Shown piece after piece: positions 36,999-64,000 of a stretch of DNA of 64,000 nt. Below the pieces are notes generated by a model. That model searched no databases. It saw only the letters and a program-made list of their open reading frames with translations, and was not told where the DNA came from. Position 1 is the first letter of the stretch, and each line of letters starts with the position of its first letter. The position numbers and the translations under genes were made by a program. The stretch is from the NCBI RefSeq assembly GCF_036365525.1, contig NC_090399.1, positions 42,688,430 through 42,752,429 of the forward strand. Direction: 5' to 3'. This DNA comes from Heterodontus francisci. Taxonomy: Eukaryota.

Positions 36999-37262
36999 CG
37001 TAAATCACCACCATCGTCTCCGTCAGCCCGCTGTGCTCCACCCGACAGGAATACTCAGCCTGGTCTTCCGGATCAAACTCTATCCATTTCCGGATCTGGT
37101 AGGTTCTGTCGTGATTGGGTAAAATCCCAGAGGACAGGGTCTCATCGATCATCACTCCATCTCTCCACAGAGTCACCTCGATGGCCTGAGGGTAAAACCC
37201 AGTGACGACACAGGACAGCCGGTTAGAACCACCCAGACGGGTAAAGGACACGACGGGAGTCA
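36999..37262 (-). CDS. MHC class I heavy chain, alpha3 (Ig C1-set) exon
   Basis: tctctcag|TG...TACG|gtaaga, 264 nt, phase 1-1; translates LSCVVTGFYPQAIEVTLWRDG...LPNHDRTYQ...YSCRVEHSGL. Confidence 0.97.
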
Positions 37263-37319
37263 CTGAGAGAGAAAAAAAGAGGAATCAGTACAAGAACCTT
37301 GAGGTACTGTGCCCCGGCT

Positions 37320-40300
37320 CCCCATTCACCGAACCCTCGACCCCCACCTTCCCTCACTCCCTCGCCGACCCTCGCCCCCCCCACCTCCCCTCACTCCCTC
37401 GCCACCCACCTCCCCTCACTCCCTCGCCGACCCCCGGCCCCCAATGCCCCACATTCCCTCGCCGACGCTCGGCCCCCGCCTCCCCTCACTCCCTCGCCCC
37501 CCGACTCCCCTCACTCCCTCGTCGACCCTCGCGCCCCACCTCCCCTCGCCGACACTCGCGCCCCCACCTCCCCTCGCTCCCTCGCTGACCCTCGCCCCAC
37601 CACCTCCCCTCGCTCCCTCGCTGACCCTCGCCCAACCACCTCCCCTCGCTCCCTCACCCCCCCACCACCTCCCCTCGCCCCTTGACCACCTCCCCTCACT
37701 CCCTCGCCCCCTCATCACCTCCCCTCGTACCCTCGCGCCCCCCCACCACCTCCCCTCGCTCCCTCACCCCCCACCACCTCGCCTCACTCCCTCGCCTCCC
37801 CTCCCCTCACTCCCTCGCCCCCCCCATCACCTCCCCTCACCCCCTCATCCCCTCGCTCCCTCACCACCTCCCCTCGCTCCCCCCACCACCACCCCTCGCT
37901 CCCTCGCCCCCCCACCACCACCCCTCGCTCCCACACCACCTCCCCTCGCTCCCTCGCGCCCTTCACCACCTCCCCGCGTACCCTCGCGCCCCCCCACCAC
38001 CTCCCCTCGCTCCCCCCCACATCCTCCCCTCGCTCCCTCGACCCCCACTTCTTTCCCTCGATCCCTCCCCCCCCCACATCCTTCCCTTGTGCCCCCCACC
38101 TCCCCTCGCCCCACCGCCGACCATCGCCCCACCGCCGACCATCGCCCCACCGCCGACCATCGCCCCCACCGCCGACCATCGCCCCCACCGCCGACCATCG
38201 CCCCCACCACCTCCCCTCGCTCCCTCGTCCCCACCACCTCCCCTCGCTCCCTCGCCCCCACCACCTCCCCTCGCTCACTCGCCCCCACCACCTCCCCTCG
38301 CTCACTCGCCCCCACCACCTCCCCTCGCGCCCAACACCTCCCCGCCTCCTCCCTTAACCCCACCACCTCCCCTCACTCCCTTGCTCCCCCTACCTCCCCT
38401 CACACCCCCCTCCTCCCCTCACTCCCTCGCCCCCACCGCCTACCCCCGGTCCCTCGCCCCCACCGCCTCCCCCCGATCCCTCGCCCCCACCGTCTTCCCC
38501 CGCTCCCTCGCCCCCACCGCCTCCCCCCGCTCCCACCTCCCTTCGTACCCTCGCCCCCACCAGTTCACCTCACTCCCTCGCCCACTCGCTCCCTCGCCCC
38601 CACCACTTCCCCTCGCTCCCTCGCCCCCAGCACTTCCCCTCACTCCCTCGCCCCCAGCACTTCCCCACTTCCCCTCGCTCCCACTTCCCCTCGCTCCCTC
38701 ACCCTCCCTCGCCCTCGTTCCCTCGCCGACCCTCGCCCCCACCACTTCCCCTCGCTCCCTCGCCGACCCTCGCCCCCCCCCTCGCCCCCACCACTTCCCC
38801 TCGCTCCCTCGCCGACACTCGCCCCCCACGCCCACACCACTTCCCCTCGTTCCCTCGTCCCCACCAACTTCCCCTCGCTCCCTCGCCCCCAACAATTTGC
38901 CCCGCCCCCACCACCTCCCCTCGCTACCTCGCCGACCCTCGCCCCCACCACTTCCCCTCACTCCCTCGCCGACCCTCGCCCCCACCACTTCCCCTCACTC
39001 CCTCGCCCCCACCACTTCCCCTCACTCCCTCGCCCCCACCACTTCCCCTCACTCCCTCGCCCCCACCACTTCCCCTCACTCCCTCGCCCCCACCACTTCC
39101 CCTCACTCCCTCGCCATCCATCGCCCCCACCACTTCCCCTCGCTCCCTCGCCGACCCTCGCACCCCCACCTCCCCTCGCCGACCGTCGCCCCCCCACCTC
39201 CCCTCGCCCTCACCACCTCCCCTCGCTCCCTCGCCCCCACCACCTCCCCTCGCCCCGTCGCCGAAGCTCGCCCCGTCGCCGAAGCTCGCCCCGTCGCCGA
39301 AGCTCGCCCCGTCGCCGAAGCTCGCCCCATCGCCGAAGCTCGCCCCATCGCCGAAGCTCGCCCCATCGCCGAAGCTCGCCCTCCACCTCCCCTCACTCCC
39401 ACCACCTCCCCTCACTCTGTCGCCCCCACCACCTCCCCTCACTCCCTCGCCCTCACCACCTCCCCCCCTCCCTCGCACCCACCTCCTCCCAACACCTCCT
39501 CCCCTCACTCCCTCGCCCCCCCACCTCCCCTCACTCCCTTGCTCCCCCTACCTCCCCTCACACCCCCCACCTCCCCTCACTCCTTCGCTCCCACCGCCTC
39601 CCCCCGGTCCCTCGACCCCACCGCCTCCCCCCGATCCCTCGCCCCCACCGTCTTCCCCAGCTCCCCCGCCCCCACCGCCTCCCCCCGCACCCTCGCCCCC
39701 ACCAATTCCCCTCACTCCCTCGCCCCCACCACTTCCCCTCGCTCCCTCGCTGACCCTCGCCCAACCACCTCCCCTCGCTCCCTCACCCCCCCACCACCTC
39801 CCCTCGCCCCCCCACCACCTCCCCTCACTCCCTCGCCCCCCTCATCACCTCCCCTCGTACCCTCGCGCACCCCCACCACCTCCCCTCGCACCCTCGCGCA
39901 CCCCCACCACCTCCCCTCGCTCCCTCACCCCCCCACCACCTCCCCTCGTTCCCTCGCCCCTCCTCACCCCCTCGCCCCCCCACCACCTCCCCTCGCTCCC
40001 TCGCCCCCCCACCACCTCCCCTCGCCCCCCCACCACCTCCCCTCACTCCCTCGCCCCCCTCATCACCTCCCCTCGTACCCTCGCGCACCCCCACCACCTC
40101 CCCTCGCACCCTCGCGCACCCCCACCACCTCCCCTCGCTCCCTCACCCCCCCACCACCTCCCCTCGCTCCCTCGCCCCCCACCACCTCCCCTCGCTCCCT
40201 CGCCCCCCCACCACCTCCCCTCGTTCCCTCGCCCCTCCTCACCCCCTCCCCTCGTTCCCTCGCCCCCCCACCACCTCCCCTCGTTCCCTCGCCCCTCCTC

Positions 40301-42470
40301 ACCCCCTCGCCCCCCCACCACCTCCCCTCGTACCCTCGCGCCCCCCCACCACCTCCCCTCGTACCCTCGCGCCCCCCCACCACCTCCCCTCGTACCCTCG
40401 CGCCCCCCCACCACCTCCCCTCGCGCCCCCCCACCACCTCCCCTCGCTCCCCCCCACCACCTCCCCTCGCTCCCCCCCACCACCTCCCCTCGCTCCCCCC
40501 CCACCACCTCCCCTCGCTCCCCCCCCACCACCTCCCCTCGCTCCCCCCCCACCACCTCCCCTCGCTCCCCCCCACCACCTCCCCTCGCTCCCCCCCCACC
40601 ACCTCCCCTCGCTCCCTCGCCCCCTCACTTCCTTCCCTCGCTCCCTCGCCCCCCCACATCCTTCCCTCATGCCCCCCACCTTCCCTTGCCCCCCACCACC
40701 CCTTGCACCCTCGCCCACCCAAATCCCCTCGCCCACCCTCGCCCCACCACCACCTCCCCTCGCTCCCTCGCCGACCATCGCCCCACCACCTCCCCTCGCT
40801 CCCTCGCCGACCATCGCCCCACCACCTCCCCTCGCTCCCTCGCCGACCTTCGCCCCACCATCTCCCTTCGCCGACCCTCGCCCCCACCACCTCCCCTCCC
40901 TCACACGCCCCCACCACCCCTCACTCCCTCGCCCCCACCACTTCCCCTCGCTCCCTCGCCGACCCTCGCCCCCCCCTCACCCCCACCACTTCCCCTCACT
41001 CCCTCGCCGACACTCGCCCCCCACGCCCACACCACTTCCCCTCGTTCCCTCGCCCCCAACAATTTGCCCCGCCCCCACCACTTCCCCTTGCTACCTCGCC
41101 GACCCTCGCCCCCACCACTTCCCCTCACTCCCTCGCCGACCCTCGCCCCCACCACTTCCCCTCACTCCCTCGTCCCCACCACTTCCCCTCGCTCCCTCGC
41201 CATCCATCGCCCCCACCACTTCCCCTCGCTCCCTCGCCGACCCTCGCCCCCACCACCTCTCCTCGCTCCCCCACCTTCCCTCATTCCCTCGCCCCCACCA
41301 CTTCCCCTCACTCCCTCGCCGACCCTCGCCCCCACCACCTACCCTCGCTCCCCCACCTTCCCTCGTTCCCTCGCCCCCACCACCTCCCCTCGCTCCCTCG
41401 CCCCCACCACCTCCCCCCCCCTCCGTCGCCCCCACCACCTCCCCCCCCCTCCGTCGCCCCCACCACCTCCCCCCCCCTCCGTCGCCCTCACCACCTCCCC
41501 CCCCTCCGTCGCCCTCCCTTCGCCCCCACCACCTCCCCCCCTCCCTCGCCGACACTCGCCCCCCACGCCCCCACCACTTCCCCCCCCTCCACCACCTCCC
41601 CCCCCTCCGTCGCCCCCACCACCTCCCCCCCCTCCGTCGCCCTCACCACCTCCCCCCCCTCCGTCGCCCTCCCTTCGCCCCCACCACTTCCCCTCGCTCC
41701 CTCGCCGACCCTCGCCCCCACCACTTCCCCTCGCTCCCTCGCCGACACTCGCCCCCCACGCCCCCACCACTTCCCCCCCCTCCCTCGCCCCCCCCACCGC
41801 CTCCCCCCACTCCCTCGCCTCCCCCCACTCCCTCGCCCCCCCCCACCGCCCCCCCCACTCCCTCGCCCCCCCCCCCACCGCCTCCCCCCACTCCCTCGCC
41901 CCCCCCCCCACCGCCTCGCCCCCCCCCCCACCGCCTCCCCCCACTCCCTCGCCCCCCCCCCCACCGCCTCGCCCCCCCCCACCGTCCCCCCCCACCGCCT
42001 CGCCCCCCCCCACCGTCCCCCCCCACCGCCTCCCCCCACTCCCTCGCCCCCCCACCACCGCCTCCCCCCACCGCCTCCCCCCACTCCCTCGCCCCCCCAC
42101 CACCGCCTCCCCCCACTCCCTCGCCCCCCCCCACTCCCTCGCCCCCCCCACCGCCTCCCCCCCACTCCCTCGCCCCCCCACCGCCTCCCCCCACTCCCTC
42201 GCCCCCCCACCACCGCCTCCCCCCACTCCCTCGCCCCCCCACCACCGCCTCCCCCCACTCCCTCGCCCCCCCACCACCGCCTCGCCCCCCCACCACCGCC
42301 CCCCCCCACTCCCTCGCCCCCCCCACTCCCTCGCCCCCCCCCAACCGCCCCCCCCCACTCCCTCGCCCCCCCCCACCACCACCCCCCCCACTCCCTCGCC
42401 CCCCCCCACCACCACCCCCCCCACTCCCTCGCTCGCCCCCCCCCCCCTCACTCCCTCGGCCACCACCTCC
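37320..42470. repeat. C-rich (+) / G-rich (-) minisatellite filling MHC intron 3
   Basis: Variant units ctccctcgcccccaccac(c/t)tcccctc(a/g); embedded 18-bp array ctcgccccRtcgccgaag x7 near 39248-39380. Confidence 0.97.
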
Positions 42471-42476
42471 ACTCAC

Positions 42477-42749
42477 CAACACTCAGTTCTCGCTGTCCGT
42501 ACTGCAGAAATTTCCTCAGCCATTCAAAACACATAACCTCCAGGTTGTGTTTGCATTGCTGTTTGTTAGCGCTGTTCTGGTTCAACTTGCTTTGGATGCC
42601 CTGCGCCCATGGGACCGGAGTCTCCCACACAATGTTATCCTTGTCAAAGTTCATGAAGTCTCGTCCGTCCCATCCCGTCTGAACAAACGCATTCCTGGTC
42701 CCATCATCCCGCAGCTCACAGCCGAGTTGGATCTGGTACGTGTGGATCC
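42477..42749 (-). CDS. MHC class I heavy chain, alpha2 exon
   Basis: gattgacag|GG...GTTG|gtgagt, 273 nt, phase 1-1; GIHTYQIQLGCEL...GWDGRDFMNFDKD...CFEWLRKFLQYG with both canonical cysteines. Confidence 0.97.
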
Positions 42750-42767
42750 CTGTCAATCAGGCGCACA

Positions 42768-42940
42768 CAGCCAATAAAGCAGATCCGACTGGGAGGCCAC
42801 GCCCACTATTGCACAGCCAATCAAAAGCAGTATCACCGGGAGACCCCGCCCACTACGTCAGCCAATGAAAACTGGCCTCACTGGGAGACCCCGCCCACAC
42901 TGCCTGTCCCACATCTCCTGGGGAGCTGCGGCTATTTAAA
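42768..42940 (+). promoter_or_regulatory. Putative antisense promoter module in MHC intron 2 (3 x CCAAT plus GC box, then TATA-like box)
   Basis: CCAAT at 42771, 42817 and 42862; CCACGCCC/CCCCGCCC at 42797, 42844 and 42889; TATTTAAA at 42933-42940. No expression evidence. Confidence 0.5.
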
Positions 42941-43162
42941 GGGCCCCTTTGTATTTTAAGGACATCGCGTTTGCCAGTCTTTGGATAAATGTTCATGAAG
43001 TGATGTGAGGCCGCTCGCTTTGACTGCCGGCTCTGCTCTGGGAGACGGAGCCACGTTTCTTGTTATCCTGGCTCCCGCACTATTCCCGACTTTTCCCCAT
43101 CCCCGCCCGGATCCCTCATCCCACAGAAAGAGGCAGAGTGAGGCGGAAGGGTGAAGACTCAC

Positions 43163-43423
43163 CTTCCGACTGGTTGGACTGGGATGTGAGTATTGGGAGG
43201 TAGATTTTAGAATACATCTCCTGCCTCTGCATGAGCTCTGTCTTCTGCATCCAGGACTCAGGCCCCTCGCTTTCCACCATCCACTGCTCCCGGGGAATCA
43301 ACTGCTTCCGATCGCTGTCGTACATAACAAACTGGACATCGTCAACATAACCAACACCCACAAACTCCGGGAAACCGGGAATCGGAGTCATGCGGGTAGC
43401 GAAATACCGGAGAGAGTGAGAGC
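43163..43423 (-). CDS. MHC class I heavy chain, alpha1 exon
   Basis: tttttcag|GC...GAAG|gtgagt, 261 nt, phase 1-1; GSHSLRYF...PEFVGVGYVDDVQFVMYDS...NQS (N86 glycosylation sequon). Confidence 0.97.
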
Positions 43424-43607
43424 CTGAAAAACAAAGAGAAACATCAGGACACAAACCCCAAAACACCAATATAAGAAATTGTAGTTTTAAGGATATTATT
43501 AAATTACTAGAAATAGTTGTAGGAGAAATGCTGGGACTTTGTCTTCTTAGCAAAGGTTCTTTCTTTCTCGCTCACTTCAAGCAATTCTCCAACTATATGC
43601 TCAAGGT

Positions 43608-46447
43608 AAGAACATAAGAAATAGGAGCAGGAGTAGGCCATTCGGCCCCTCGAGCCTGCTCCACCATTTATTAAGATCATGGCTGATCCGACTGTGGCTT
43701 TAACTCCACTTTCTTGCCACCACCACCCCAGTAACCTTTTGACTCCCTGGAGGATCAAAAATCTATTTCACTCGGCCTCCACTGCTGTCTGGGGAAGAGA
43801 ATTCCAAAGATTAACAATCCTCCGAGAGAAGAAATTCCATCTCATCTCCATCCTAAAAGGGAGACCCTTTATTTTGAATACGTGTCCTCTAGTTCTAGAT
43901 TCCCCCATGAGGAGAAACATCCTTTGAGCATCAGCCCTGTCAAGTCCCTCAGAAACATATGTTTCAATAAGATCACCTAAATCATCTAACTGCAATAAGT
44001 ATAGGCACAACCTGCTCAACCTTTGCTCAGAAGACAAACCCCTCATCCCAGGAATCAACCTAGTGAACCTTCTCTGAACTACTGCCAATGGAGGTATATC
44101 ACTCCCTCAGCAAGGAGGGCAAAATTATACTGAGTAATCTAGGTGCAGTCTCAGCAATGGCCTGTACAATTGTAGCAAGATTGCCCTATATATTCCATCC
44201 TCCTTTCAATAAATAGCAAAATTCCAATTGCCTTCCTAATTACTTACTTACTACTTACATGCTAACTTTTTGGGATTCATGTACAAGAACACCCAGCTCC
44301 CTCTGTACCGCAGCTTTCTGCATTCTCTGTTTTTTCATTCACAGGATGTGGGTGTTGCTGGCTAGACCAGCATTTATTGCGTATCCCTAATTGCCCTTGA
44401 GAAGGCAGTGGTGAGCTGCCTTCTTGAATCGCTGCAGTCCTTGGAGTGTAGGTATGCCAATAGTGCTGTTAGGAAGGACGTTCCAAGATTCTGACCCAGC
44501 GACAGAGAAGGATTGACAATATATTTCCAAGTCAGGATGCTGTGTGGCTTGGAGGGGAAATGCAGCTGGTGGTGTTCTCATGCATCTGTTGCCCTTGTCC
44601 TTCTAGGTGGTAGAGGTCACGGGTTTGGAAGGTGCTGTTGAAGGAGCCTTGGTGATTTGCTGCAATGCATCTTTTAGATGGTGCACACTGCTCCGAATAA
44701 ATAATCTGCTTTTCTATTCTTCCTGCCAAAGTGGCTAATCTCACATTTTCCCACTGTTACAACCAGGTGAGAAAGGTGTCTAGGGGTTTTTTACGGTCTT
44801 CACCTGGTCTTATTATAACAGACTTTAATTTTAAATGCACTGTGTTTTGAGCTTCTCCCTTTGTGAATCCTTGTTCACAGTTTTCCAATTATATGGCAAA
44901 GAAATTTGCATAAACAGGCTTCCTTAGGTGTAAAGAAGAAAAGTGTAATTTATTAAACCTTAAACTGAAACTCTAATATGGTTAATGCTGATGGATACAC
45001 GATGTGTCCACGCCAGCATGCACACACGATACACACATGCAAATAGGGACAGAAAAGAGTAGAAGAAAAATAAAATGGAGAGGTTTGAGGCAGTCTCTAA
45101 AGGGTATTTTTTTGTTACTGTTTCTGTGGCTGCAGCTTGCTGTAGAGTCCTTGATTGTAGACAGCTCTTACTTTTCATTGTAAGAGCTTAAATCTTGTTC
45201 ACTGCAACAGACTTTTCTATCTTGGGATTCAGATGTCTTCAGTGCTTCCGAAGCTGGTGAAAGCGAGATTAGAGCAGGCAGGAGAGGTGTTCTCAGTCCA
45301 GGAGCTAACAGCCTTCTGATTTTCAAACATTCTGTTGGAAACTCTAATTCAAAAATCTCCAACAGTCAGTCAGTCATGTGACCAAACTGTTCTGACCACA
45401 TCTGTTTGTGTATTCGGCCATCTTAGTAGTTATGGAATGCTTCAATGTCTGGTAATCAAAAGTGGATTAAATTGGAGCAGGGAACAGCTCCTTTGTTCTT
45501 TGAAGTACTGTCTGTGGATATGTTAATGTCTCTCTCCAGCCAAAGATTTCAATAGTTTTTTAAAGTAAGTTCTATCTTCACCATCAGCAGTTTAAAATCA
45601 ATGTTCATGCGATGAAATGATTTTTCCTCCTTTCTTGGCAGGTAGGGTTTGCCTGACACCACATTATACTCCATCTGCCAAATTTTTGTCCACTTACTTA
45701 ACTGATCCATATCCCTTTGCAGACACTTTGTCTTCCTCACAACTCACTTTCCTAGCTATCTTTGAATTGTCTGTAAATTTGGCTACAATACACTCACTCC
45801 CTTCATCCGTCATTAATATAGATCGTAAATACTTGAGGCCCCAGCACAGATCCCTGTGGCAATCCACTAGTAACAGTTTGGCAGTCTGAAAATGCCCCAT
45901 TTATCCCGACTATCAATTTCTTATTAGTTAGAAATCCTCTATCTATGCTAATATATTACCCTCAACACCATCAGCTGTTATCTGTTTAGTAACCTTTTAT
46001 GTGGCACCTTATGGAATGACTTTTGGAAATCCAAATACACTAGATCTACTGATTCCCCTTTATCTACCCTGCCTGGTACATCCTTAAACAACTCCAATGA
46101 ATATGTCAAACACAATTTCAGGTTCATAAAACCATGTTGACTCTGCCTGATTTGTATTATGATTTTCTAAATGTCCTACAACTACTTCCTTAATGCCGGA
46201 TTCTAGTATTTTCCCAATAACAGATGTTGGGCTAACCGGCCTACAGTTTCCCACTTTCTGACACCACCCCCACCAAAACTTTCTTGTATAGGGGTGTTAC
46301 ATTTGTAGTTTTCCAATTCGCTGGGACTTTTCCAAAATCTAGGGAATTTTGGAAAGTTACAACCAATGCATCCATTATCTCTGCAGCCACTTACTTAGAG
46401 ATACTAAGATGCAGGCCATCAGGTCCAAGGGACTTGTCAGCCTTTAA
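43608..46447 (-). mobile_element. Old CR1 LINE 3' part, interrupted by a LINE fragment (44326-44692) and a solo LTR
   Basis: VQRRFTRLIPGM, WNSLP and KFTDNSK fragments; the tail ends at aagaacataagaa on +. Confidence 0.88.
44755..45658. mobile_element. Solo LTR (904 bp)
   Basis: TGTTAC...TGACA termini with exact CCAC TSD (44751-44754, 45659-45662); the CR1 sequence resumes across it. Confidence 0.85.
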
Positions 46448-47095
46448 TCAACAGCCAAGATGGATTGTATTTGCCAGTTGATCGTTGTCTAAATTACCTA
46501 GCTGGAGACATAGCTCTGCCAGGCACATGCCTTTGTGTGGAATATACCTGGCCCAATCAGATGGGGCCTCATACCCATATATCTAAATGACTATCTGGTG
46601 AAACTAATGAGATGACTTCAAGGGCTGGGCACTGAAAAAGGTGGGGTTTTCATTACGTACCTGTCTCTGAACAACTGGATAATTGGAATGGGAAGATGTA
46701 ACCAAACGAGTGATTGGAATGGGACAACCACCAGCCCTAAAAATAGAGTATATAAACAAGCTGTTCAAAAGGAAAAAAAGGACAGGTTGAAGGGAGGAGG
46801 CGCTTTAGGGTTGCTCGCTTCCAGTTAACACCCTGATCAGCCTGAAGGGGTGAAAGTGGTTTAAGAGATCGTTACAGTAGGGGGCAGTGGCCAAGCCATT
46901 CTGTCTGTCCAATCCACGAACTGTATGCCTTCTCAGCTGTCAGGGGTCATATGTCTACTATAGCGATTCGGATGATGTGTTGTATTTGAACTGTAACTTC
47001 TCAATAAACTGCATTTAAACCTTTAAACTGAACCACTTGTGACTGCTCAACTCTTCTGAATAATCTGTTACTCGTGATCAAATCTTACGCAATCA
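46448..47095 (+). mobile_element. Probable partial LTR
   Basis: ccaat about 46553, TATATAAA 46749 and AATAAA 47003 in LTR-like order; termini and TSD not resolved. Confidence 0.4.
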
Positions 47096-47626
47096 TCAAA
47101 GAGAGTTCAGAGCATGAACTCCAAAACACCAACCCCACACAGAGAGACACATCAGAACATGACCCCCAAATACCAACCTCACAGAGAGACAGGTATCCGG
47201 GCATGAACCCCAAAACACCAGCCCCACAGAAAAAGAGACATCAGGGCATGAACCCCAAAACACCAGCCCCCCACAGAGAGATATCAGGGCATGAACCCTA
47301 AAACATCAATGCCACACCTCCAAACCCACAAAGAGAGAAAGAGGTGTCCATACCCCACAATCTCCCTCCCCAACCTCCGACCGTGCTCTCTAAGCCTGTG
47401 ATCTCCCTCCCCAAAATCTCACTGGCCTCCCCATCAGAGACTCTGTGAACTCATGTCTCACCTGTTCCTCCTCCAGTCCCCCCACAATCTAACCTAATTT
47501 GGGGGTCATGTCCTGATGTGTCTCTCTGTGTGGGGTTGGTGTTTTGGAGTTTATGCTCTGAACTCTCTTTGATGATTGTGTAAGATTTGATTATGAGTAA
47601 CAGATTATTCAGAAGAGTTGAGTAGT
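47042..47626. repeat. 130-bp inverted repeat (47042-47171 / 47497-47626) enclosing a short minisatellite of about 45 bp
   Basis: The arms are near-exact reverse complements; catgaaccccaaaacaccagcccc units lie at 47110-47320. Confidence 0.92.
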
Positions 47627-47629
47627 GAT

Positions 47630-47922
47630 GGGCGGCGCAGTGGTTAGCACCGCAGCCTCACAGCTCCAGGGACCCGGGTTCGATTCTGGGTACTGCCTGT
47701 GCGGAGTTCTCCCTGTGTCTGTGTGGGATTTCGCTGGGTGCTCCGGTTTCATCCCACATCCAAAGACTTTCAGGTGATAGGTAAATTGGCCGTTGTAAAT
47801 TGCCCCTAGTGTAGGGAGCTGATAGGGAATATGGGATTACTGTAGGGTTAGTGTAAATTGGTCGGCACAGACTCGGTGGGCCGAAGGGCCTGTTTCAGTG
47901 CTGTATCTTTAAATAAATAAAA
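47630..47922 (+). mobile_element. HE1-type (V-SINE) SINE
   Basis: gggcggcgcagtggttagc...ggttcgattc...gggccgaagggcctgtttcagtgctgtatc(taaa)n. Confidence 0.9.
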
Positions 47923-48109
47923 TTACCTGGAACTTGGTGCACTAACCTTTCAATACATTAAAGGTGATATATAAATATAAATTATTGTTATAATCTGTGT
48001 GGCCTCCTCCTGCAGCATCATCTACAATATGATGAGCTCTGAGACCCAAAATCTGCAGCTTCTTGGAGCTCAGCATTGGAGTGCGGACTGTTAACACCAT
48101 GTGAGGTGG

Positions 48110-49037
48110 GGGAGCTCTTGAATATAACCCCAGAGAATTTTATATCGAAGTTTGCTGTCGACACTAAGTCGGGTGGCTCAGTAAATTGTGTGGACAGGAG
48201 GCAGGAAGTTACAAAGAGACACTGACAGATTAAATGAATGGGCAAAACTATGGAAGATGGAGTTCACTGTGGGGAATATGAGATCATCCACTTTGGGTCT
48301 AAGAAAGATAAATGGGTATATTTTCCATCCGGTGGGAAACTTGAACCTGGGGAGAGCAAATGGAGAAATCATTACAGACCTGTGGACAGGGACAATAAGG
48401 ATTTGGAAAGCTGGCCTTTATCTTGAGGGGACTGCAATACAAAGGGGTGAAAGTTATGTTCCAGTTTATATAAAGCTCTGGTCAGACTCCATCTGGAGTA
48501 ACTGTGTTCAGTTCTGGGCCCCGGACCTCAGGAAGGATAGATTGGTCTTGGGGAGAGAGCAACACAGATTCACCAGAATGATCCTGGGAGTTAGAGGGTT
48601 AAATTACGAGGCCATGTTGTTTAGACTCGGCTTGTATTCTCTCCATTATGGAAGATTGAAGGTGATGTGATCGAGGTGTTTAAAATGTTACAAGGATTTG
48701 ATAGAATCAATATGAAGAAACGATTTCCCCTAGTGGGGGAATCAAGAACGAGGAGACATAATCTTAAAATTAGAGCCAGACTGTTCTGGAGTGAAATCAG
48801 GAAGCACTTCTTCACACAAAGAGCAGTGGAAACCTGGAACTCTCTTCCCCCAAAAGGCTGTGGATACACGGGATCGATTGATGCTTTCAGAGCTGAGATA
48901 GACTTTTGTTGGATCAGTGTCTCGACGGAGATTGAGCAAACGTAGGAAAATAGAGTTGAGACATAGATCAACCATGATCTAATTGAATAATGGAACAGGC
49001 TCAAGGGGCTGAATACTCTACTCCTGTTCTTATGTTC
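48110..49037 (+). mobile_element. Old CR1 LINE 3' fragment
   Basis: LQRDTDRLNEWAKLW, CVQFWAP, FPLVGESRTR and WNSLP fragments; tail ctcctgttcttatgttc. Confidence 0.88.
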
Positions 49038-49179
49038 CTCTCTCTCCATCTCTCCTGCCCCATATCCCTGTCCCTCAGTCCGCTGTCCACACCCTGCTCC
49101 CACCATGGTCTCTCCTTCTCCAGCCCCAGTACCGAGCCTGCTCCCGTCTCCTTCAGACTCCATTACCCACTGAGCAAGG

Positions 49180-51262
49180 GGAAATGCTCCGGTAAAAAGA
49201 ATAACAGGGAAGGTGAAGGGTAGGGGAGATTAAATGACAAAAGGGTTGATGGTGGAAAGCCAAAGGGAGTGGCAATGGGACAAGTAAAGAAACAAAAGTT
49301 GAGTCTGGAGGTGTAAATGACGGAATCATGAACAGCTGCTTCCGAAAGCAAAAACAATAGAAAAACGAGTTAAAATCAAAATCTGCAAAAAAAAAGGAAA
49401 CAAGAAAGGGGCCAGAGATGACAATCTGAAATTGTTGAACTCAATGTTGAGTCCAGAAGGCTGTAAAGTGCCTCAATGAAAGATGAGGTTCAGTTCCTCG
49501 AGATTCAATTGAGCTTCATTGGAACAGGAAGCCGAAGACAGAGAGATCAGAGTGGGAGCAAAGCGGAAAATTACAATGGAAGGCTGCTGGAAGCTCGGGA
49601 TCCTGCTTGCAGATTGAACAGAGGTGTTCTGCAAAGCAATCACCCAATCTGCATTTCATCTCCCAAATGTAGAGCAGACCACATCGTGAGCAGTGAATAC
49701 AGGAGACTAAATTGAAAGTACACAAAAATTGCTCTTTTACCTGGAAGGACTCTGTGGCCTTGGAAAGTGAGAAGGGAGGAACTAAATGGACAGGTGTTAC
49801 ATCTCCTGTGCTTGCAACGGAAAGGGGCCCAGGAAAGGGGAGAGGCTGTTGGGGGTGATTGAGGAGTGGACCAGGGTGTCGTGGAGGGAACTGTCCCTTT
49901 GGAATGTTGAAACTGGAGGGGGGAGATGCATTTGGTGGTCGTATCATGCTGGAGGTGGTTCAAATGGCCAAGGATGATCTGTTGAATACGGAGGCTGGTG
50001 GGGTGAAAGGTGGGGACAAGGGGAACTTCATCATGGTTCTGGGAGGGGAAGGGGTGAGGGCAGAAGTGCAGGAAATGGGACGGACACGGTGGGGGGACTC
50101 CTTGGTTGAGGAAAAAGGAAGACATATCGGAAGCATTGGGATGAAAGGTTGCATCATCAGAACAGATATGATGGGAGACGGAGAAACTGGGAGATTGAAA
50201 TGGAGTCGGAGTGTGAGGAAGAGTAATCGAGTTAGCTGAAGGAATCAGTGGGCCTATTGTGAATATTGGCTGATTGTCTCCATTCCTGGATGTAGGCTGA
50301 GAGGTCAAGGAAGGGAAGAGTTGGAGATGCAACATGTGAAGGTGAGTGAAGGGTGGAAATTGGAAGTTGATGCAATTTTCCAGATCAGTGTGATATCAGG
50401 AAATGGCACCAATACACTTTGTTTCCAATTTCCACTGATGAAAGGTCACAGACCTGAAACTTTAACTCTGTTTCTCTCTTCACAGATGCTGCCAGACCTG
50501 CTGTGCATTTCCAGAACTGTTTTAATTTCAGATTTCCAGCATCTGCATTATCTTTTATTTTAGCGATTTAATTAAAGCTCTTTCAATCTAGTATACTGTA
50601 TTCACTGCTCAGAATGTGATCTCCTCTGCAATGTGGAGAAAGCAGATTGGGTGACCGCTTTGCAGAACATCTCCATTCAGTCCGCATGCGTGACCCAAGC
50701 TTCCCGTTCCGTTATTTTAATTCTCCACCTTGATCCCACTCTGACATCTCTGTCTTCAGCCTCATACACTGTTTCAATGAAGCTCGAGGAACAGAACCTC
50801 ATCTTTCAATAAGGCATTTGACAGCCTTCCAGACTCAACATTGAGTTCAACTATTTCAGATTGTAATCCCTTCCTTTTTCTTTGCGGGTTTCAGTTTTAC
50901 TTTTGTTTTTATTCCTTTTCTTTGCTTTAGAAGGGCAGGTTTTCATGATTTTGCCAATCACACCTCCTCTTTACTTGTCCCATTACCACTCCCTTTGGCC
51001 TTGCAGCAACAACCCTTTTTTTCATTTAATCCCTTCTCCCGTCCACCCGATTACAGACATTCCCTTTTGCTCTATTTCCAACCTTCCCCGTTCCACCTGC
51101 TTAAACCCGATTACATTCCGAACATTTCCCAGTTCTGACAAAAGGGCATCGATCTTAAACGTTGGCAGTTTTGGCATCATCTGTAGAGAAATTGTTGAGT
51201 ATTTCCAGCATTTTCTATTTTTATTCAGATTTCCAGCAACCACAGTATTTTGCTCTTGTATT
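49180..51262. mobile_element. Penelope-like element remnants in inverted arrangement (- 49180-50410; + 50430-51262)
   Basis: GIY-YIG-type NLVSCIHCSRCGLLYIWE...RLGDCFAEHL on -, and a second NLVYCIHCSEC copy on + (about 50583); terminal repeats carry hammerhead-like cores. Confidence 0.8.
50431..50468 (+). ncRNA. Minimal hammerhead ribozyme motif (degenerate), Penelope-associated
   Basis: CTGATGA (50435-50441), AGGTC-ACA-GACCT stem II, GAAAC (50456-50460), then tttaact. The stem I 5' arm and stem III palindrome appear damaged. Confidence 0.6.
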
Positions 51263-51264
51263 GA

Positions 51265-54200
51265 TGCCCCAGTATCCAGCCTGGCACTGTCCCTCTCACA
51301 CCCCATTACTCACTGACTGAGGATTAATGCCCCAGCACCCAGTCTAGCACTATCCCTCTCACACACCATTATTTACTGACTGAGAACAACAAAGAACAAA
51401 CAAGCCTGTGCCGATCCAGATCCTCTATCTAAACATGTCGCCTATTTTCTTAGGGTCTGTATCTCTTTGCTTCCTGCTCATTCATGTATCTGTCTAGATA
51501 CATCTTAAAAGAAGCTATCGTGCCCGCGTCTACCACCTCCGCTGGCAACGCGTTCCAGGCACCCACCACCCTCTGTGTAAAGAACTTTCCACACATATCC
51601 CCCCTAAACTTTTCCCCTCTCACTTTGAACTCGTGACCCCTAGTAATTGAATCCCCCACTCTGGGAAAAAGCTTCTTGCTATCCACCCTGTCTATACCTC
51701 TCATGATTTTGTACACCTCAATCAGGTCCCCCCTCAACCTCCGTCTTTCTAATGAAAATAATCCTAATCTACTCAACCTCACTTCATAGCTAGCGCCCTC
51801 CATATAAGGCAACATCCTGGTGAACCTCCTCTGCACCCTCTCCAAAGCATCTACATCCTTTTGGTAATGTGGCGAACAGAACTGCACGCAGTATTCCAAA
51901 TGTGGCCAAACCAAAGTCTTATACAACTGTAACATGACCTGCCAACCCTTGTACTCAATACCCCGTCCGATGAAGGAAAGCATGCCGTATGCCTTCTTGA
52001 CCACTCTATTGACCTGCGTTGCCACCTTCAGGGAACAATGGACCTGAACACCCAAATCTCTCTGTACATCAATTTTCCCCAGGACTTTTCCATTTACTGT
52101 ATAATTCACTCTTGAATTGGATCTTCCAAAATGCATCACCTTGCATTTGCCCTGATTGAACTCCATCTGCCATTTCTCTGCCCAACTCTCCAATCTATCT
52201 ATATTCTGCTGTATTCACTGACAGTCCCCTTCACTATCTGCTACTCCACCAATCTTAGTGTCGTCTGCAAACTTGCTAATCAGACCACCTATACTTTCCT
52301 CCAAATCATTTATGTATATCACAAACAACAGTGGTCCCAGCACGGATCCCTGTGGAACACCACTGGTCACACGTCTCCATTTTGAGAAACTCCCTTCCAC
52401 TGCTACTCTCTGTCTCCTGTTGCCCAGCCAGTTCTTTATCCATCTAGCTAGTACACCCTGGACCCCATGCGACCTCACTTTCTCCATCAGCCTACCATGG
52501 GGAACCTTATCAAACGCCTTACTGAAGTCCATGTATATGACATCTACAGCCCTTCCCTCATCAATCAACTTTGTCACTTCCTCAAAGAATTCTATTAAGT
52601 TGGTAAGACATGACCTTCCCTGCACAAAACCATGTTGCCTATCACTGATAAGCCCATTTTCTTCCAAATGGGAATAGATCCTATCCCTCAGTATCTTCTC
52701 CAGCAGCTTCCCTACCACTGAGTTCAGGGTCACTATAATAATGCTATAATTACCTGGATTTTCCCTGCTACCCTTCTTAAACAAGGGGACAACATTAGCA
52801 ATTCTCCAGTCCTCCGGGACCTCACCCGTGTTTAAGGATGCTGCAAAGATATCTGTTAAGGCCCCAGCTATTTCCTCTCTCGCTTCCCTCAGTAACCTGG
52901 GATAGATCCCATCCGGACCTGGGGACATGTCCACCTTAATGCCTTTTAGAATACCCAACACTTCCTCCCTCCTTATGTCGACTTGACCTAGAGTAATCAA
53001 ACATCTGTCCCTAACCTCAACATCCGTCATGTCCCTCTCCTCGGTGAATACCGATGCAAAGTACTCGTTTAAAATCTCACCCATTTTCTCTGACTCCACG
53101 CATAACTTTCCTCCTTTGTCCTTGAGTGAGCCAATCCTTTCTCTCGTTACCCTCTTGCTCCTTATATATGAATAAAAGGCTTTGGGATTTTCCTTCACCC
53201 TGTTTGCTAAAGATATTTCATGACCCCTTTTAGCCCTCTTAATTCCTCGTTTCAGATTGGTCCTACATTCCCGATATTCTTTCAAAGCTTCGTCTTTCTT
53301 CAGCCTCCTAGACCTTATGTATGCTTCCTTTTTCCTCTTAGCTAGTCTCACAATTTCACCTGTCATCCATGGTTCCCTAATCTTGCCATTTCTATCCCTC
53401 ATCTTCACAGGAACATGTCCCTCCTGCACGCTAATCAACCTCTCTTTAAAAGCCTCCCACATATCAAATGTGGATTTACCTTCAAACAGCTGCTCCCAAT
53501 CTACATTCCCCAGCTCCTGCCGAATTTTGGTATAGTTGGCCTTCCCCCAATTTAGCACTATTCCTTTAGGACCACTCTCGTCTTTGTCCATGAGTATTCT
53601 AAAACTTACGGAATTGTGATCACTATTCCCAAAGTAGTCCCCTACTGAAACTTCAACCACCTGGCCGGGCTCATTCCCCAACACCAGGTCCAGTATGGCC
53701 CCTTCCCGAGTTGGACTATTTACATACTGCTCTAGAAAACCCTCCTGGATGCTCCTTACAAATTCTGCTCCATCTGGACCTCTAACACTAAGTGAATCCC
53801 AGTCAATGTTGGGAAAATTAAAATCTCCTACATCTTTCCATAATCTGTTTACATATTTGTACCTCTATCTCACGCTCGCTGTTGGGAGGCCTGTAGTACA
53901 GCCCCAACATTGTTACTGCACCCTTCCTATTTCTGAGTTCTGCCCATATTGCCTCACTGCTCGAGTCCTCCATAGTGTCCTCCTTCAGCACAGCTGTGAT
54001 ATCCTCTTTGACCAGTAATGCAACTCCTCCACCCCTTTTACCTCCCTCTCTATCCCGCCTGAAGCATCGATATCCTGGGATATATAGTTGCCAATCATGC
54101 CCTTCCCTCAACCAAGTCTCAGCAATAGCAATTACTTATTAAGGGTTAAGCCCAAGTACCCAGTCTAGAACTGTCCCTCTCACACACCATTACTCACTGA

Positions 54201-54692
54201 CTGAGGGTTAATGCCCCAGTACCCAGTCTGGCACTGTCCCTCTCACAATCCATTACTCACTGACTGAGGGTTAATGCCCCAGTACCCAGTCTAGCACTAT
54301 CCCTCTCACACCCCATTACTCACTGACTGAGGGTTAATGCCCCAGTACCCAGTCTAGCACTATCCCTCTCACACCCCATTATTCACTGACCAAGGATTAA
54401 TGCCCCAGTACCCAGTCTAGTACTATCCCTCTCACACCCCATTACTCACTGACCAAGGATTAATGCCCCAGTACCCAGTCTAGCACTATCCCTCTCACAC
54501 CCCATTACTCACTGACCGAGGGTTAATGCCCCAGTACCCAGTCTAGAACTGTCCCTCTCACAATCCATTACTCACTGACCAAGGATTAATGCCCCAGTAC
54601 CCAGTCTAGCACTGTCCCTCTCACACACCATTATTCACTGACTGAGGGTTAATGCCCCAGTACCCAGTTGGCTCTGTCTCTCACACCCCATT
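51265..54692. repeat. 63-bp minisatellite split by a CR1 insertion (about 2 units at 51265-51384, about 9 units at 54133-54692)
   Basis: Unit gccccagtacccagtctagcactatccctctcacaccccattactcactgactgagggttaat; starts at 54213, 54276 and 54339. Confidence 0.93.
51385..54132 (-). mobile_element. CR1 LINE with most of ORF2 (pseudogene)
   Basis: ORFs 53818-54111, 52215-53684 (489 aa; SDHNSV, YMDFSKAFD, FADDTK) and 51450-52193. Confidence 0.95.
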
Positions 54693-56597
54693 AAGAACAT
54701 CAGAAATAGGAACAGGAGTAGGCTATTCGGCCCCTCAAGCCTGCCCTGCCAATCAATAAGATCACGGCTGATCTGCCCAAGACCTCAACTCCTCTGCCAT
54801 GCCAGCTCCTCATAGCCCTCAACTCCCCAATATTTCAAAAATCTACCTCTTTTTTAAATACTTTCAGTGATCTAGTCTCCACAACTTTCTGGGGGAGAGA
54901 ATTCCAGACATTCACTACCCTCTGAGAGAAGAAATTCCTTCGCATCTCAGTTTTAAATGAGTGTCCCCTTATTCTGTAACTATGTCTCCTAGTTTGAGAT
55001 TCCCCCACTAGTGAAACATCTTCTCAACATCTACCCTGTAAAGCCGCCTCAGTATCTTGTACCTTTCAATAAGATCACCCCTCATTCTTCTAAATTTCGA
55101 ATGAATAAAGGCCTAACCTGTTTAGCTGTTCTTGATATGTCAACCCCTTCATCCCAGGAATCAGCCTCGTGAACCTCTTTTGAACTGCCTCCAATGCCAG
55201 TAAATCCTTTCATAAATACGGGGACCAAAATTAGACGCAGTACTCCAGGTGCGGTCTCACCAACACCCGGTACAGTTGTAATAAGATTTACCTATTTTTA
55301 AACTCCAACCCCCGAGCAATAAAGGCCAAAATTCCTTTTGCCGCCTTAGTTACTTGCTGCACCTGCATGCTAACTTTGTGTTTCATGCACAAGAACACCC
55401 AAATCCCTCTGTGCATTTAAATAATAGTCTGCCTTTTGATCTCACACTTCCCCACATTAAACTCCATCTGCCAGGTTTTTGCCCACTCACTCAACCTATC
55501 TATATCCCCTTTCAGATTCCTTATGTCCTCATCACAACATGGCTTCCCACCTATTTTGTATCATTAGCAAATTTGGATATATTACACTCTGCTCCCTCCT
55601 CCAAGTCATGAATATAGATAGTAAATAATTGAGGCCCCAAGCCTGATCCTTATGGCGCTCCATTAGTTATGTATTTCCAACCTGAAAAAGACCCATTAAT
55701 CCAGAATCTGTCTTCTGTGAGTTAACCAATCCTCAATCCATGCTAATACATTACCTCCAATACCATGAGCTCCTATCTTGTGCAATAATCTTTTATGTGA
55801 CACCTTATCAAATGCCTTCTGGAAATCTAAATACACTCCATCTACCGGTTCCCCGTTATCCCAAATAACTCTAGCAAATCTGTCAAACATGATTTCCCTT
55901 TCACAAAACCATGTTGACTCTGTTTGATTACGTTAAGCTTTTCTAAATGTCCTGCTATTTCTTTCTTAATAATGGACTCCAGCATTTTCCCAATGACCGA
56001 TGTTAAGCTGACTGGCCTGTAGTTTCTTGCTTTTTGTTTCCCTCCCTTCTTGAACAGGGGCATCACATTAGTGGTTTTCCAATCCGCTGGACCCTCCCAG
56101 AATCCAGTGAGTTCTGGAATATTTCGACCAATGCCTCCACTATCTCTGCAGCCACCTCCTTTAAAACCCTTGGATGTAGGCCATCAGGTCCTGGGAACTT
56201 GTCTGCCTTTAGCCCCATTAGTTTGTCAAATACTTTGTCCATCGTGATAGAGACTGTTACAAGATCTTTCCTCCCATTAGCTCCTTGCTATCTGATATCT
56301 GTGGGATGTTTATAGTGTCCTCCACCGTGAAGACTGATGCAAAATATTGGTTTAAATTATCTGCCATTTCCCTGTTCCCCGTTATCAATTCTCCAGTTGC
56401 ATCCTCCAAGGGTCCCACACTCACTTTAGCTACTCTCTTTTTATATATCCGTAGAAGCTCTTGCTGTTTGCTTTTATATTTTTTGCCTATTTACTTTCAG
56501 AATCAATTGTCTCCCTCATTATTAGCTTTTTAGTCATCCACTGCTGGTTCCTAAAAAATTCCCTGTCGACTGGCCGACCATTAGTTTTTGCTGCTTT

Positions 56598-59500: not shown

Positions 59501-59815
59501 CAGTTTCATTCCTTTTTAATGACTTCGTAGCGATTAGGTACAACTGAGTGGCTTGCTAGGCCATTTCAGAGGGCATGTAAGAGTTACCCACATTGCTGTG
59601 GGTCTTGAGTCACATGTATGCCAGACCAGGTAAGGACAGCAGATTTCCTTCCCTGAAGGACATTAGCGAACCAGATGGGTTTTTACAACAATCGACAATG
59701 GTTTCGTGGCCATCATTAGACTAGCTTTTAATTCCAGATTTATTAAACAAATTCAAATTCCACCTTCTGCTGTGGTGGCATTCGAACCCATGTCCCCAGA
59801 GAAATACCCTGGGTC
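56598..59815 (-). mobile_element. Near full-length CR1/L2-group LINE lacking ORF1, with tRNA/Deu-SINE-like 5' head
   Basis: EN (TNIWGL, TESYL, VGDFN, SDHR) and RT (LDIKAAFDRVWH, GVPQGSVLGP, FADDC) in ORFs 58644-59393, 57833-58675 and 56876-57787; B-box ggttcgaatgcc at 59777-59788 on -. Confidence 0.88.
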
Positions 59816-60310
59816 TTTGTATGCCTTAGTTTTTGATTGGATACTCTCCTTGACTGCCTTTGTTAACCATGAGTGGTTCATCGTTCTCATCAGGTCCTTC
59901 TTTTTGGCCGCGATAAATTTTTGCTGAGCATTATGAAATATTTGCTTAAATGTCTGCCACTGCTCATCCACTGACCTTCCTGTGAGTCTATTTTCCCAGC
60001 CCGCTTTAGGCAACTCTTTCTTCATACCTCCGTAATTGCCCTTGTTTAAGTTGAGGACACTGGTTTGAGACCCGAGTTGCTTGCCCTGAAACTGAATTTG
60101 AAATTCTACCATGTTGTGATTGCTACCCCCTAGAGGATCCTGAACTACGATATCTCTTATTAATCCTACCTCATTACACATTACTAGATATAAAATAGCC
60201 TGTTTCTTGGTAGGTTCTGCAACGTATTGCTCTAAGTAACAATCCCTGATGCACTCTACAAATTTCTCTCCCATGTTATCTCTGCTAATCTGATTTGTCC
60301 AGTCAATATT

Positions 60311-63300: not shown

Positions 63301-63715
63301 GATAGGCTTGGGTTGTTCTCGCTGGAGCAGAGAAGACTGAGGGGTGACCTGATTGAGTTGTACAAGATTATGAGGGGCATGGACAGGGTGGATAGGGAGC
63401 AGCTGTTCTCTACTTGAAGGATCAGTTACGAGGGGACACAAGGTTAAGGTGAGGGGCAGGAGGTTTAAGGGGGATTTGAGGAAGAACTTTTTTGACAGTC
63501 TGGAATGCACTGCCTGGGAGGGTAGTAGAGGCGGGTTGCCTCACATCCTTTAAAAAGTACCTGGATGAGCACTTGGCATGTCATAACATTCAAGGCTATG
63601 GGCCAAGTACTGGCAAATGGGATTAGGTAGACAGAGAGGTATCTTTAATGCATCGGTGCAGACTCGATGGGCCGAAGGGCCTCTTCTGCACTGTATTATT
63701 CTGTGATTCTGTGAT
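60311..63715 (+). mobile_element. CR1 LINE with the end of ORF1 (SGNH-esterase-like) and disrupted ORF2; same family as 22541-25310
   Basis: WCRREGFRFLDHWDLYKRDGLHLNQRG ORF1 tail, YFNARSI EN start, RT motifs and attctgtg tail. Confidence 0.95.
60970..61219 (-). mobile_element. Short 3' RTE fragment inserted in the CR1
   Basis: Matches 31843-32096; flanked by a 23-bp duplication cagaggtgtgtaaaaataataat (60947-60969, 61220-61242). Confidence 0.93.
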
Positions 63716-64000
63716 TATTTGAATATGCAGATTAAAATCACCCATGACAATTGCTGTGCCCTTCTTACATGCTTCCATTATTTCCCAATTTATACTTTGT
63801 CCTAAAATGAGGCAACTCTTCAGGGGGCCTACAGACGACTCCAACCCATGACTTCTTCCTCTTGCTATTCCTTATTCCCACCCAAACTTATTCCACATCA
63901 CAATCTATTGCACCTATATCACTACTCACCACCGCACTGATACCTTCCTTTATTAACAAAGCTACCCTACCTCCTTTTCCTTTTTACCTATTTTTCCGGA

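What the first reader, a model, noticed from the sequence alone, without database searches (positions are those of the whole stretch)
42477..43423. Open-frame class I gene that has lost 6 of 8 peptide-anchoring residues: a non-classical shark MHC-I with a probable unusual ligand
Seen, by manual alignment to the class I framework (HLA-A2 numbering): Y7 and K146 are kept; Y59 is S (EGPESW), R/Y84 is Q, T143 is I, W147 is L, Y159 is N and Y171 is F. C101-C164, N86 and the alpha3 fold motifs are intact and there are no stops. Known: these eight residues bind peptide termini in classical molecules, and cartilaginous fish have several non-classical lineages. Inference: a structurally maintained molecule with a remodelled groove that may bind a non-peptide ligand or none. 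I cannot assign the lineage by eye; it may be a known non-classical lineage such as UCA or an undescribed branch.
Basis: partly seen in the sequence, partly recalled or inferred. Interest (0 to 1): 0.75.

Follow-up and report, generated by a model that had tools for sequence, protein, structure and literature searches.

The report
Anchor-poor shark UBA class I copy
This is a shark MHC class I gene (likely horn shark) that has lost six of the eight residues that normally grip peptide ends, but it is one more copy of the long-known multicopy non-classical UBA family, several of whose members have lost as many; it likely holds a small part-greasy, part-polar ligand such as an acylated peptide, which is untested.

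Summary
Exons 43423-43163 and 42749-42477 (minus strand) encode class I alpha1 and alpha2 with Y7 and K146 kept and S59, Q84, I143, L147, N159, F171. Alpha3, transmembrane and one cytoplasmic exon lie downstream in the window; the leader does not. The five exons match RefSeq XP_067865800.1 (Heterodontus francisci) at 100%.

It is neither UCA nor a new lineage. It falls in a 99/96-supported clade with the published nurse shark UBA reference (AAC60347). It is 76% identical to the 1997 horn shark cDNA AAC60348 and 27-32% identical to UFA and UGA. All 42 complete UBA-clade rows lack Y59, and 7 of 42 keep two anchors or fewer.

Contigs from four probable RNA runs (one sample) join alpha1 to alpha2 at the intron and carry a leader, so it is probably expressed. 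The gene has 40 private substitutions in alpha1-2 and none in alpha3.

The groove is not CD1-like: 23 of 38 positions are apolar, the same as peptide-binding nurse shark UAA. Best guess is an amphipathic, non-canonically held ligand (about 40%). Verdict: a new member of a known family with an open ligand question.

The parts
43163..43423 (-). Exon 2, alpha1 domain (Y7, S59, K63, L66, Y77, P79, Q84, N86 sequon)
   Evidence: 100% to XP_067865800.1
42750..43162 (-). Intron 2, 413 nt, GT..AG; skipped by a contig joint in 4 of 4 runs
   Evidence: (table 5)
42477..42749 (-). Exon 3, alpha2 domain (C101, I143, K146, L147, extra C156, N159, C164, W167, F171)
37263..42476 (-). Intron 3, almost all a low-complexity tandem array (C-rich on the + strand)
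36999..37262 (-). Exon 4, alpha3 Ig-C1 domain, 94-98% identical to the close horn shark UBA paralogues and 83% to nurse shark UBA
12471..12575 (-). Exon 5, connecting peptide and transmembrane helix (after a 24.4-kb intron 4)
11816..11853 (-). Exon 6, cytoplasmic, keeps the GYNP tyrosine motif; 34 nt up to a gtaag donor, and the RefSeq model reads on into a TAA at 11818-11816, so the Ser-rich tail of the paralogues is missing from the model
43424..64000 (-). Part of intron 1 (over 20.5 kb). No leader and no other class I piece here; the leader lies beyond the window
   Evidence: leader in RefSeq model and as a loose end on contigs at the exon 2 acceptor (table 7)

Best explanation
This is a class I heavy-chain gene of the elasmobranch non-classical UBA clade, likely from horn shark and probably expressed, whose product is predicted to pair with beta-2-microglobulin at the cell surface and likely holds a small amphipathic ligand, such as an acylated or hydrophobic peptide with unanchored ends, rather than a canonical terminally anchored peptide. 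Shown: exon structure, UBA placement, loss of 6 of 8 anchors, conserved framework residues, spliced alpha1-alpha2 contigs. Inferred steps: (1) The A-pocket network cannot hold a free peptide N-terminus, because Y59, Y159 and Y171 are gone and position 63 is Lys (39 of 42 UBA rows, 0 of 26 classical-type rows). (2) The F-pocket network cannot hold a C-terminus except through K146 (R84, T143 and W147 gone; Y77 and P79 on the alpha1 wall). (3) Smaller side chains (A9, G24, S74, T116, L147, C156, N159) leave the cleft open rather than filled. (4) An apolar floor, polar mid-walls, no acidic residues and one lysine at each end suit a ligand with a greasy part and an anionic or polar part, as in chicken YF1*7.1. 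(5) It is a young sub-branch seen only in horn shark so far (sister model XP_067865917.1), made by birth-and-death duplication. Identity as UBA about 0.95; this ligand class about 0.4.
For: 100% match of five exons to XP_067865800.1. IQ-TREE, 52 of 98 rows: a 27-row clade with AAC60347, which PMC10751288 S10 labels UBA, at 99/96; per-domain FastTree trees of alpha1, alpha2 and alpha3 each join the UBA reference before any UAA reference, some at weak support. Identity over alpha1-3: 76% to AAC60348, 67% to AAC60347, 54% to UAA 6LUP, 32% to UGA 9CH4, 27% to UFA 8GM8. UBA-type residues K63, L66, P79, I143, M35 are present. Of 27 framework or beta2m-contact positions (list recalled), 26 equal the UBA reference or 6LUP with M35 and G117 as in UBA, and none is private. 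AlphaFold model: normal class I fold, mean pLDDT 82, best PDB match 6LUP. 40 substitutions absent from four horn shark paralogues lie in alpha1-2 (14+26 of 178) against 0 of 88 in alpha3. Side-chain volume at 38 groove positions is lower than in 38 of 41 other UBA rows; mean hydropathy 0.95 exceeds all 26 eight-anchor rows; 0 acidic and 2 basic residues. Contigs with 0 differences cover gene-specific stretches in 4 of 4 runs and a joint skips intron 2 in 4 of 4. [quoted passage not shown]
Against: The apolar count at the 38 groove positions is 23, identical to peptide-binding 6LUP and to horn shark eight-anchor P0062; the hydropathy margin over the best classical row is slim (0.95 vs 0.89; floor 2.08 vs 2.04) and partly follows from the anchor changes themselves. 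Private changes are not significantly enriched at groove positions (13 of 38 vs 27 of 140, p=0.08; versus the sister 6 of 33 vs 14 of 128, p=0.25). The fold search does not separate ligand classes: UGA, CD1-1, classical class I, HFE and ZAG tie at Z 22.4-23.5. Signs of decay exist: a probable one-base insertion in exon 6 and no Ser-rich last exon found; the sister model lacks leader and TM and has a 6-residue deletion and Y27S. The runs are RNA only by guess and are one sample of one study; no listed contig shows this gene's own alpha2-alpha3 or TM joint.
Confidence: 0.5

Rival explanations
1. Same UBA gene, but it still binds unmodified peptides in a non-canonical, open-ended register, held by side-chain pockets and K146 rather than by both termini.
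For: Groove composition matches classical shark molecules (23 of 38 apolar); polar wall residues Q70, S74, N152, Q155, N159 remain; Y7, K146 and W167 are kept; a review states that UBA derives from UAA (PMC12562908, passages).
Against: Both terminal networks are dismantled and K63 puts a positive charge where a peptide amine would sit (structural role recalled).
Confidence: 0.22
2. It is a ligand-free class I (like HFE, TL or MIC; examples recalled) that signals to an NK-type or other receptor through its helices.
For: Molecules that lose both anchor sets are often empty (recalled); 27 of the 40 private changes lie outside the 38 groove positions; HFE ties with ligand binders in the fold search.
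Against: Groove side chains are small, not bulky (volume below 38 of 41 other UBA rows), which argues against a filled cleft.
Confidence: 0.15
3. It is a young duplicate under relaxed selection, on its way to becoming a pseudogene, and the anchor losses are drift.
For: Probable one-base insertion in exon 6 with loss of the Ser-rich tail; a damaged-looking sister model; groove enrichment of changes not significant.
Against: No stops in five exons; 40 private changes in alpha1-2 against 0 in alpha3; alpha1-2 differ from the sister at 20 of 162 sites against 2 of 88 in alpha3 (Fisher p=0.009); framework intact; spliced contigs. Gene conversion of the alpha3 exon among paralogues could mimic this contrast.
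Confidence: 0.13
4. It is a CD1-like pure lipid presenter, or a member of UCA, UFA, UGA or an undescribed lineage.
For: Top VIA-align row is shark UGA (Z 23.5, rmsd 4.9 over 266), hydropathy above all 26 eight-anchor rows.
Against: That Z ties with classical class I; identity is 32% to UGA and 27% to UFA; UCA rows lack C101-C164; strong UBA placement; apolar count 23 against 28-30 in the truly greasy UBA rows P0034, P0004b, P0063, P0068.
Confidence: 0.1

Closest known systems
Elasmobranch MHC-Ib UBA lineage (nurse shark AAC60347; horn shark AAC60348)
   Same: Same clade (99/96); 67% and 76% identity over alpha1-3, 83% and 94% in alpha3; shared loss of Y59 and T143 and shared K63, L66, P79, M35; multicopy on one contig.
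   Different: Keeps 2 anchors against 4 (AAC60347) and 5 (AAC60348): it also lacks R84, W147 and Y171, has N159 and C156, and keeps K146. Smaller groove side chains; shortened cytoplasmic tail in the RefSeq model.
Classical shark UAA (nurse shark, PDB 6LUP)
   Same: Best solved-structure match (54% identity); same fold, framework and apolar count in the groove.
   Different: UAA keeps 8 of 8 anchors and E63; it lies outside the UBA clade.
Chicken YF1*7.1 (MHC-Y), binder of N-myristoylated peptides
   Same: Classical architecture with an apolar floor and basic residues at the groove ends (PMC2998441 passages; PMC12212280 abstract and section 11). Functional analogy only.
   Different: Separate lineage; its ligands are shown by mass spectrometry and crystals, whereas none is shown here. 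I did not align YF1 groove residues to this protein.
Shark UFA and UGA (CD1-like, PDB 8GM8, 9CH4)
   Same: Non-classical shark class I fold (Z 18.4 and 23.5); reported as lipid binders by personal communication in PMC12562908.
   Different: 27% and 32% identity; single or low copy; this gene nests in UBA and its groove is not enriched in apolar residues.

Membership tests
UBA lineage (elasmobranch MHC-Ib) | Groups with labelled UBA sequences in alpha1-3 trees | tested here: met
   27-row clade with AAC60347 at 99/96, in 100% of 200 bootstrap trees (52 of 98 rows); per-domain trees agree; label from PMC10751288 S10
UBA lineage (elasmobranch MHC-Ib) | Multicopy, expanded family | tested here: met
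   Nine horn shark gene-model groups in the clade, all with the same 74,466,956-nt longest contig, which I read as one chromosome; multicopy per PMC10751288 section 9
UBA lineage (elasmobranch MHC-Ib) | Lacks part of the eight peptide-terminus residues | tested here: met
   2 of 8 kept; clade range 0-6, mode 5; Y59 absent in 42 of 42 and T143 absent in 40 of 42 complete rows
UBA lineage (elasmobranch MHC-Ib) | Derived from classical UAA | tested here: inconclusive
   Clade is nested among UAA-type rows but the joining branch has 93/76 support, unstarred
UBA lineage (elasmobranch MHC-Ib) | Maps to the MHC cluster flanked by c4 and rxrb | not testable with these tools
   No genome held; no second class I piece in the window and I identified no neighbouring host gene
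UBA lineage (elasmobranch MHC-Ib) | Low polymorphism or tissue-restricted expression (general class Ib criteria) | not testable with these tools
   Only one sample of unlabelled runs
Classical UAA (MHC-Ia) | Y7, Y59, R84, T143, K146, W147, Y159, Y171 conserved | tested here: not met
   2 of 8
UCA lineage | Resembles labelled UCA rows, which lack the C101-C164 pair | tested here: not met
   By eye, both UCA rows have V101 and L or V at 164; the window has C101 and C164. No UCA row was in my trees
UFA / UGA (CD1-like) | Sequence kinship and a strongly apolar groove | tested here: not met
   27% and 32% identity; apolar count 23 of 38 equals classical 6LUP
UDA / UEA | Groups with UDA (single copy) or UEA | not tested
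   No stored UDA or UEA protein was in my trees. By eye the three labelled UDA rows are unlike the window and the nurse shark row keeps Y59 and W147; no row labelled UEA appears in S10. Excluded only indirectly by the UBA placement

The most novel reading that the evidence does not exclude
Young UBA copies have repeatedly and independently shed their peptide anchors (horn shark, smooth-hound, sawfish; AU test rejects one origin for the horn shark and smooth-hound sets, p=0.00025) and switched to lipopeptide or lipid ligands, making UBA a replicated natural experiment in turning a classical-type class I groove into a non-peptide presenter in the oldest jawed-vertebrate lineage.
Probability: 0.2. 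Interest if true: 0.55.

Novelty: new member of a known kind. Interest (0 to 1): 0.22.

Why it matters
As a lineage discovery it does not matter: UBA has been known since the 1997 nurse and horn shark cDNAs, and this copy already has an automatic RefSeq model. The residual value is that elasmobranch class Ib lineages are described as of unknown function (PMC10751288 section 9), no UBA structure turned up in my PDB searches, and this gene has close paralogues (about 76% identity) that keep 4-5 anchors. That makes a clean paired test of what happens to ligand choice when anchors go. Greasier UBA relatives (Mustelus XP_078075045.1, Pristis XP_051899850.1, horn shark XP_067865827.1) are better candidates for lipid binding than this copy.

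Tried and rejected
Own genome: none held, so no synteny, leader position or paralogue DNA, and no codon-level dN/dS. Leader and last cytoplasmic exon: exact-word, tblastn and profile searches of all six frames found neither; 2,295 N bases at 8239-11606 could hide the last exon. Second class I gene in the window: none; a look-alike of the exon 2 acceptor tract at about 47100-47530 has no exon behind it. RNA search: no holder on record as RNA was listed; contig depths were not used to rank expression. Foldseek and VIA-align: confirm the fold, do not discriminate ligands; the many MR1 rows are redundant entries at 37-39% identity, and I reject an MR1 assignment. One origin for the low-anchor UBA genes: rejected by AU test, with the caveat that I named the group after seeing earlier trees. 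Groove enrichment of private changes: not significant. Literature: Almeida 2020 and 2021 were not held and Bartl 1997 was seen only as a reference, so they may already describe UBA anchor loss in detail; six searches listed no paper on a UBA ligand or on this gene. PMC6523485 passages added nothing. Earlier findings of this scan: none by sequence or words. A complex prediction with beta2m was not run, as it is a textbook pair.

Full report
Observation. The rest of the gene lies downstream: alpha3 at 37262-36999, the transmembrane exon at 12575-12471 and a cytoplasmic exon from 11853. The leader is not in the window, so intron 1 exceeds 20.5 kb. No second class I piece was found in six frames. 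All five exons match RefSeq XP_067865800.1 of Heterodontus francisci at 100%, so the window is likely horn shark DNA. Pfam MHC_I scores E=2.1e-43.

Anchors. In an alignment of 98 class I rows the gene has Y7, S59, Q84, I143, K146, L147, N159 and F171, that is 2 of 8. The register is sound, because 26 complete rows, among them nurse shark UAA (PDB 6LUP), show all eight at the same columns. HLA-A2 numbers were read by eye from Supplementary File 10 of PMC10751288. C101-C164, C203-C259, the N86 sequon and the recalled beta2m-contact positions are kept. The AlphaFold model from a 67-row alignment has the normal class I fold, mean pLDDT 82, with 6LUP as best match.

Lineage. Supplementary File 10 labels nurse shark AAC60347 as UBA; it was recovered as stored protein P0056. 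An IQ-TREE tree of 52 of the 98 rows puts the window gene in a 27-row clade with it at 99/96. FastTree trees of all rows and of each domain alone also reach the UBA reference before any UAA reference, though some of those nodes are weak. Identity over alpha1-3 is 76% to the horn shark cDNA AAC60348, 67% to AAC60347 and 54% to UAA, but 32% to shark UGA and 27% to UFA. Both labelled UCA rows lack C101-C164 (by eye). UDA and UEA were not in my trees and are excluded only indirectly. PMC10751288 (passages, section 9, supplement parts 1, 97, 98 and a term search) describes UBA as a multicopy cluster between c4 and rxrb; PMC12562908 (passages) calls it an expanded family derived from UAA. Nine horn shark gene-model groups fall in the clade. 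Synteny could not be tested.

How unusual is 2 of 8? Of 52 UBA-clade rows, 42 were complete at all groove columns; 10 were dropped for gaps, and isoforms and near-copies are included, so rows are not independent. Anchors kept range from 0 to 6 with mode 5, and 7 of 42 keep two or fewer. Y59 is absent in 42 of 42, T143 in 40 of 42, and K63 is present in 39 of 42 against 0 of 26 eight-anchor rows. The published ray UBA row keeps about one anchor (by eye). So part of the loss is a lineage trait and the rest is at the low end of a known range. The low-anchor Mustelus genes nest in a Mustelus clade, and an AU test on 28 rows rejects a single origin with the horn shark pair (p=0.00025; group named after seeing trees).

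Is it alive? Four coded runs, RNA by guess, one sample and one study, were laid on 42470-43600. A contig joint skips exactly the 413-nt intron 2 in 4 of 4 runs. Contigs with no differences cover stretches where the sister model differs (for example 43167-43246 and 42555-42641). Loose ends at the exon 2 acceptor read as the end of the leader. No listed contig shows this gene's own alpha2-alpha3 or TM joint; the listed alpha3 loose ends fit paralogues. At least two further close alpha2 forms occur in the sample, one restoring W147 with S159. Forty residues in alpha1-2 differ from all four compared horn shark paralogues, none in alpha3, and the sister XP_067865917.1 differs at 20 of 162 alpha1-2 sites against 2 of 88 in alpha3 (p=0.009). 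This fits selection on the ligand-binding domains or conversion of alpha3, and fits plain decay less well. Against that: exon 6 has 34 nt up to its donor where paralogue proteins imply 33, best explained by one inserted base (inferred from protein, real or assembly error); the Ser-rich last exon was not found; and the sister model looks damaged.

Mechanism. Shown: both terminal anchor sets are dismantled, the framework is intact, groove side chains are small (volume below 38 of 41 other UBA rows), there are no acidic and two basic residues, K63 and K146, among 38 groove positions (position list recalled). Inferred: a free N-terminus and a C-terminus cannot be held in the usual way, the cleft is open, and it suits a ligand with a greasy part and a polar or anionic part. 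Chicken YF1*7.1 is the precedent: charged residues only at the rim and ends (PMC2998441, passages) and N-myristoylated peptides as ligands (PMC12212280, abstract and section 11). Results against a lipid reading must be weighed: the apolar count is 23 of 38, the same as 6LUP; mean hydropathy exceeds all 26 eight-anchor rows only narrowly (0.95 vs 0.89); private changes are not significantly groove-enriched (p=0.08); and the fold search ties UGA, CD1, classical class I, HFE and ZAG. Other UBA rows reach 28-30 apolar positions. I put an amphipathic non-canonical ligand at about 0.4, open-ended plain peptide at 0.22, no ligand at 0.15, decay at 0.13 and pure lipid at 0.1.

Verdict. A real, probably expressed, new member of the known UBA family at the low end of its anchor range. 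It is not a new lineage. Six literature searches listed no paper on a UBA ligand, but the primary lineage papers (Bartl 1997, Almeida 2020 and 2021) and their supplements could not be read and may already cover the anchor pattern. Interest 0.22.

Noticed in passing
window 31211-31543 (-), intron 4: The last exon of the sister RefSeq model XP_067865917.1 (no leader, no TM) is 111 of 111 residues identical to this intronic stretch. Either a very recent partial duplicate, or the sister's alpha1-3 exons sit upstream in this gene's long intron 1 as a second cassette sharing leader and TM (my estimate about 0.15). Needs chromosome coordinates.
   Followed up: partly
window 11816-11853 (-): Cytoplasmic exon appears to carry one extra base relative to paralogues; the RefSeq model ends at a TAA in the donor site, keeping the tyrosine motif but losing the Ser-rich tail.
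   Followed up: partly
window 42544-42555 (-), alpha2 helix: Extra cysteine at position 156, shared with the sister, with paralogue P0043 and with Mustelus P0004b; the sister also has C147. Possible groove-facing thiol.
   Followed up: no
P0034, P0035, P0004b (Mustelus asterias), P0068 (Pristis pectinata), P0063 (horn shark): UBA-clade proteins with 0-2 anchors; the four counted have 28-30 of 38 apolar groove positions and are better lipid-binding candidates than the window gene.
   Followed up: partly
P0052, P0053, P0054, P0025, P0108, P0110: RefSeq class I models with repeated alpha1-alpha3 or alpha1-alpha2 units in sawfish, stingray, smooth-hound and a frog; annotation fusions or real exon duplications.
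   Followed up: no
window 32308-35286 (-), intron 4: 993-codon open frame with endonuclease and reverse transcriptase domains, a young non-LTR retrotransposon; further RT fragments at 23293-24381, 52218-53864 and 56879-57832.
   Followed up: partly
window 37333-42476 and 3140-8238: Two 5-kb low-complexity tandem arrays (C-rich in intron 3; 22-nt GA-rich unit downstream of the gene) and 2,295 N bases at 8239-11606.
   Followed up: no
window 47042-47626: Inverted repeat (130 nt, 95%) around a 45-nt tandem array that resembles the tract upstream of the exon 2 acceptor (36 nt at 86%); no exon follows.
   Followed up: partly
P0006 vs P0040: The 1997 horn shark cDNA AAC60348 differs from a current RefSeq model by one residue (by eye), suggesting that this paralogue is nearly monomorphic.
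   Followed up: no
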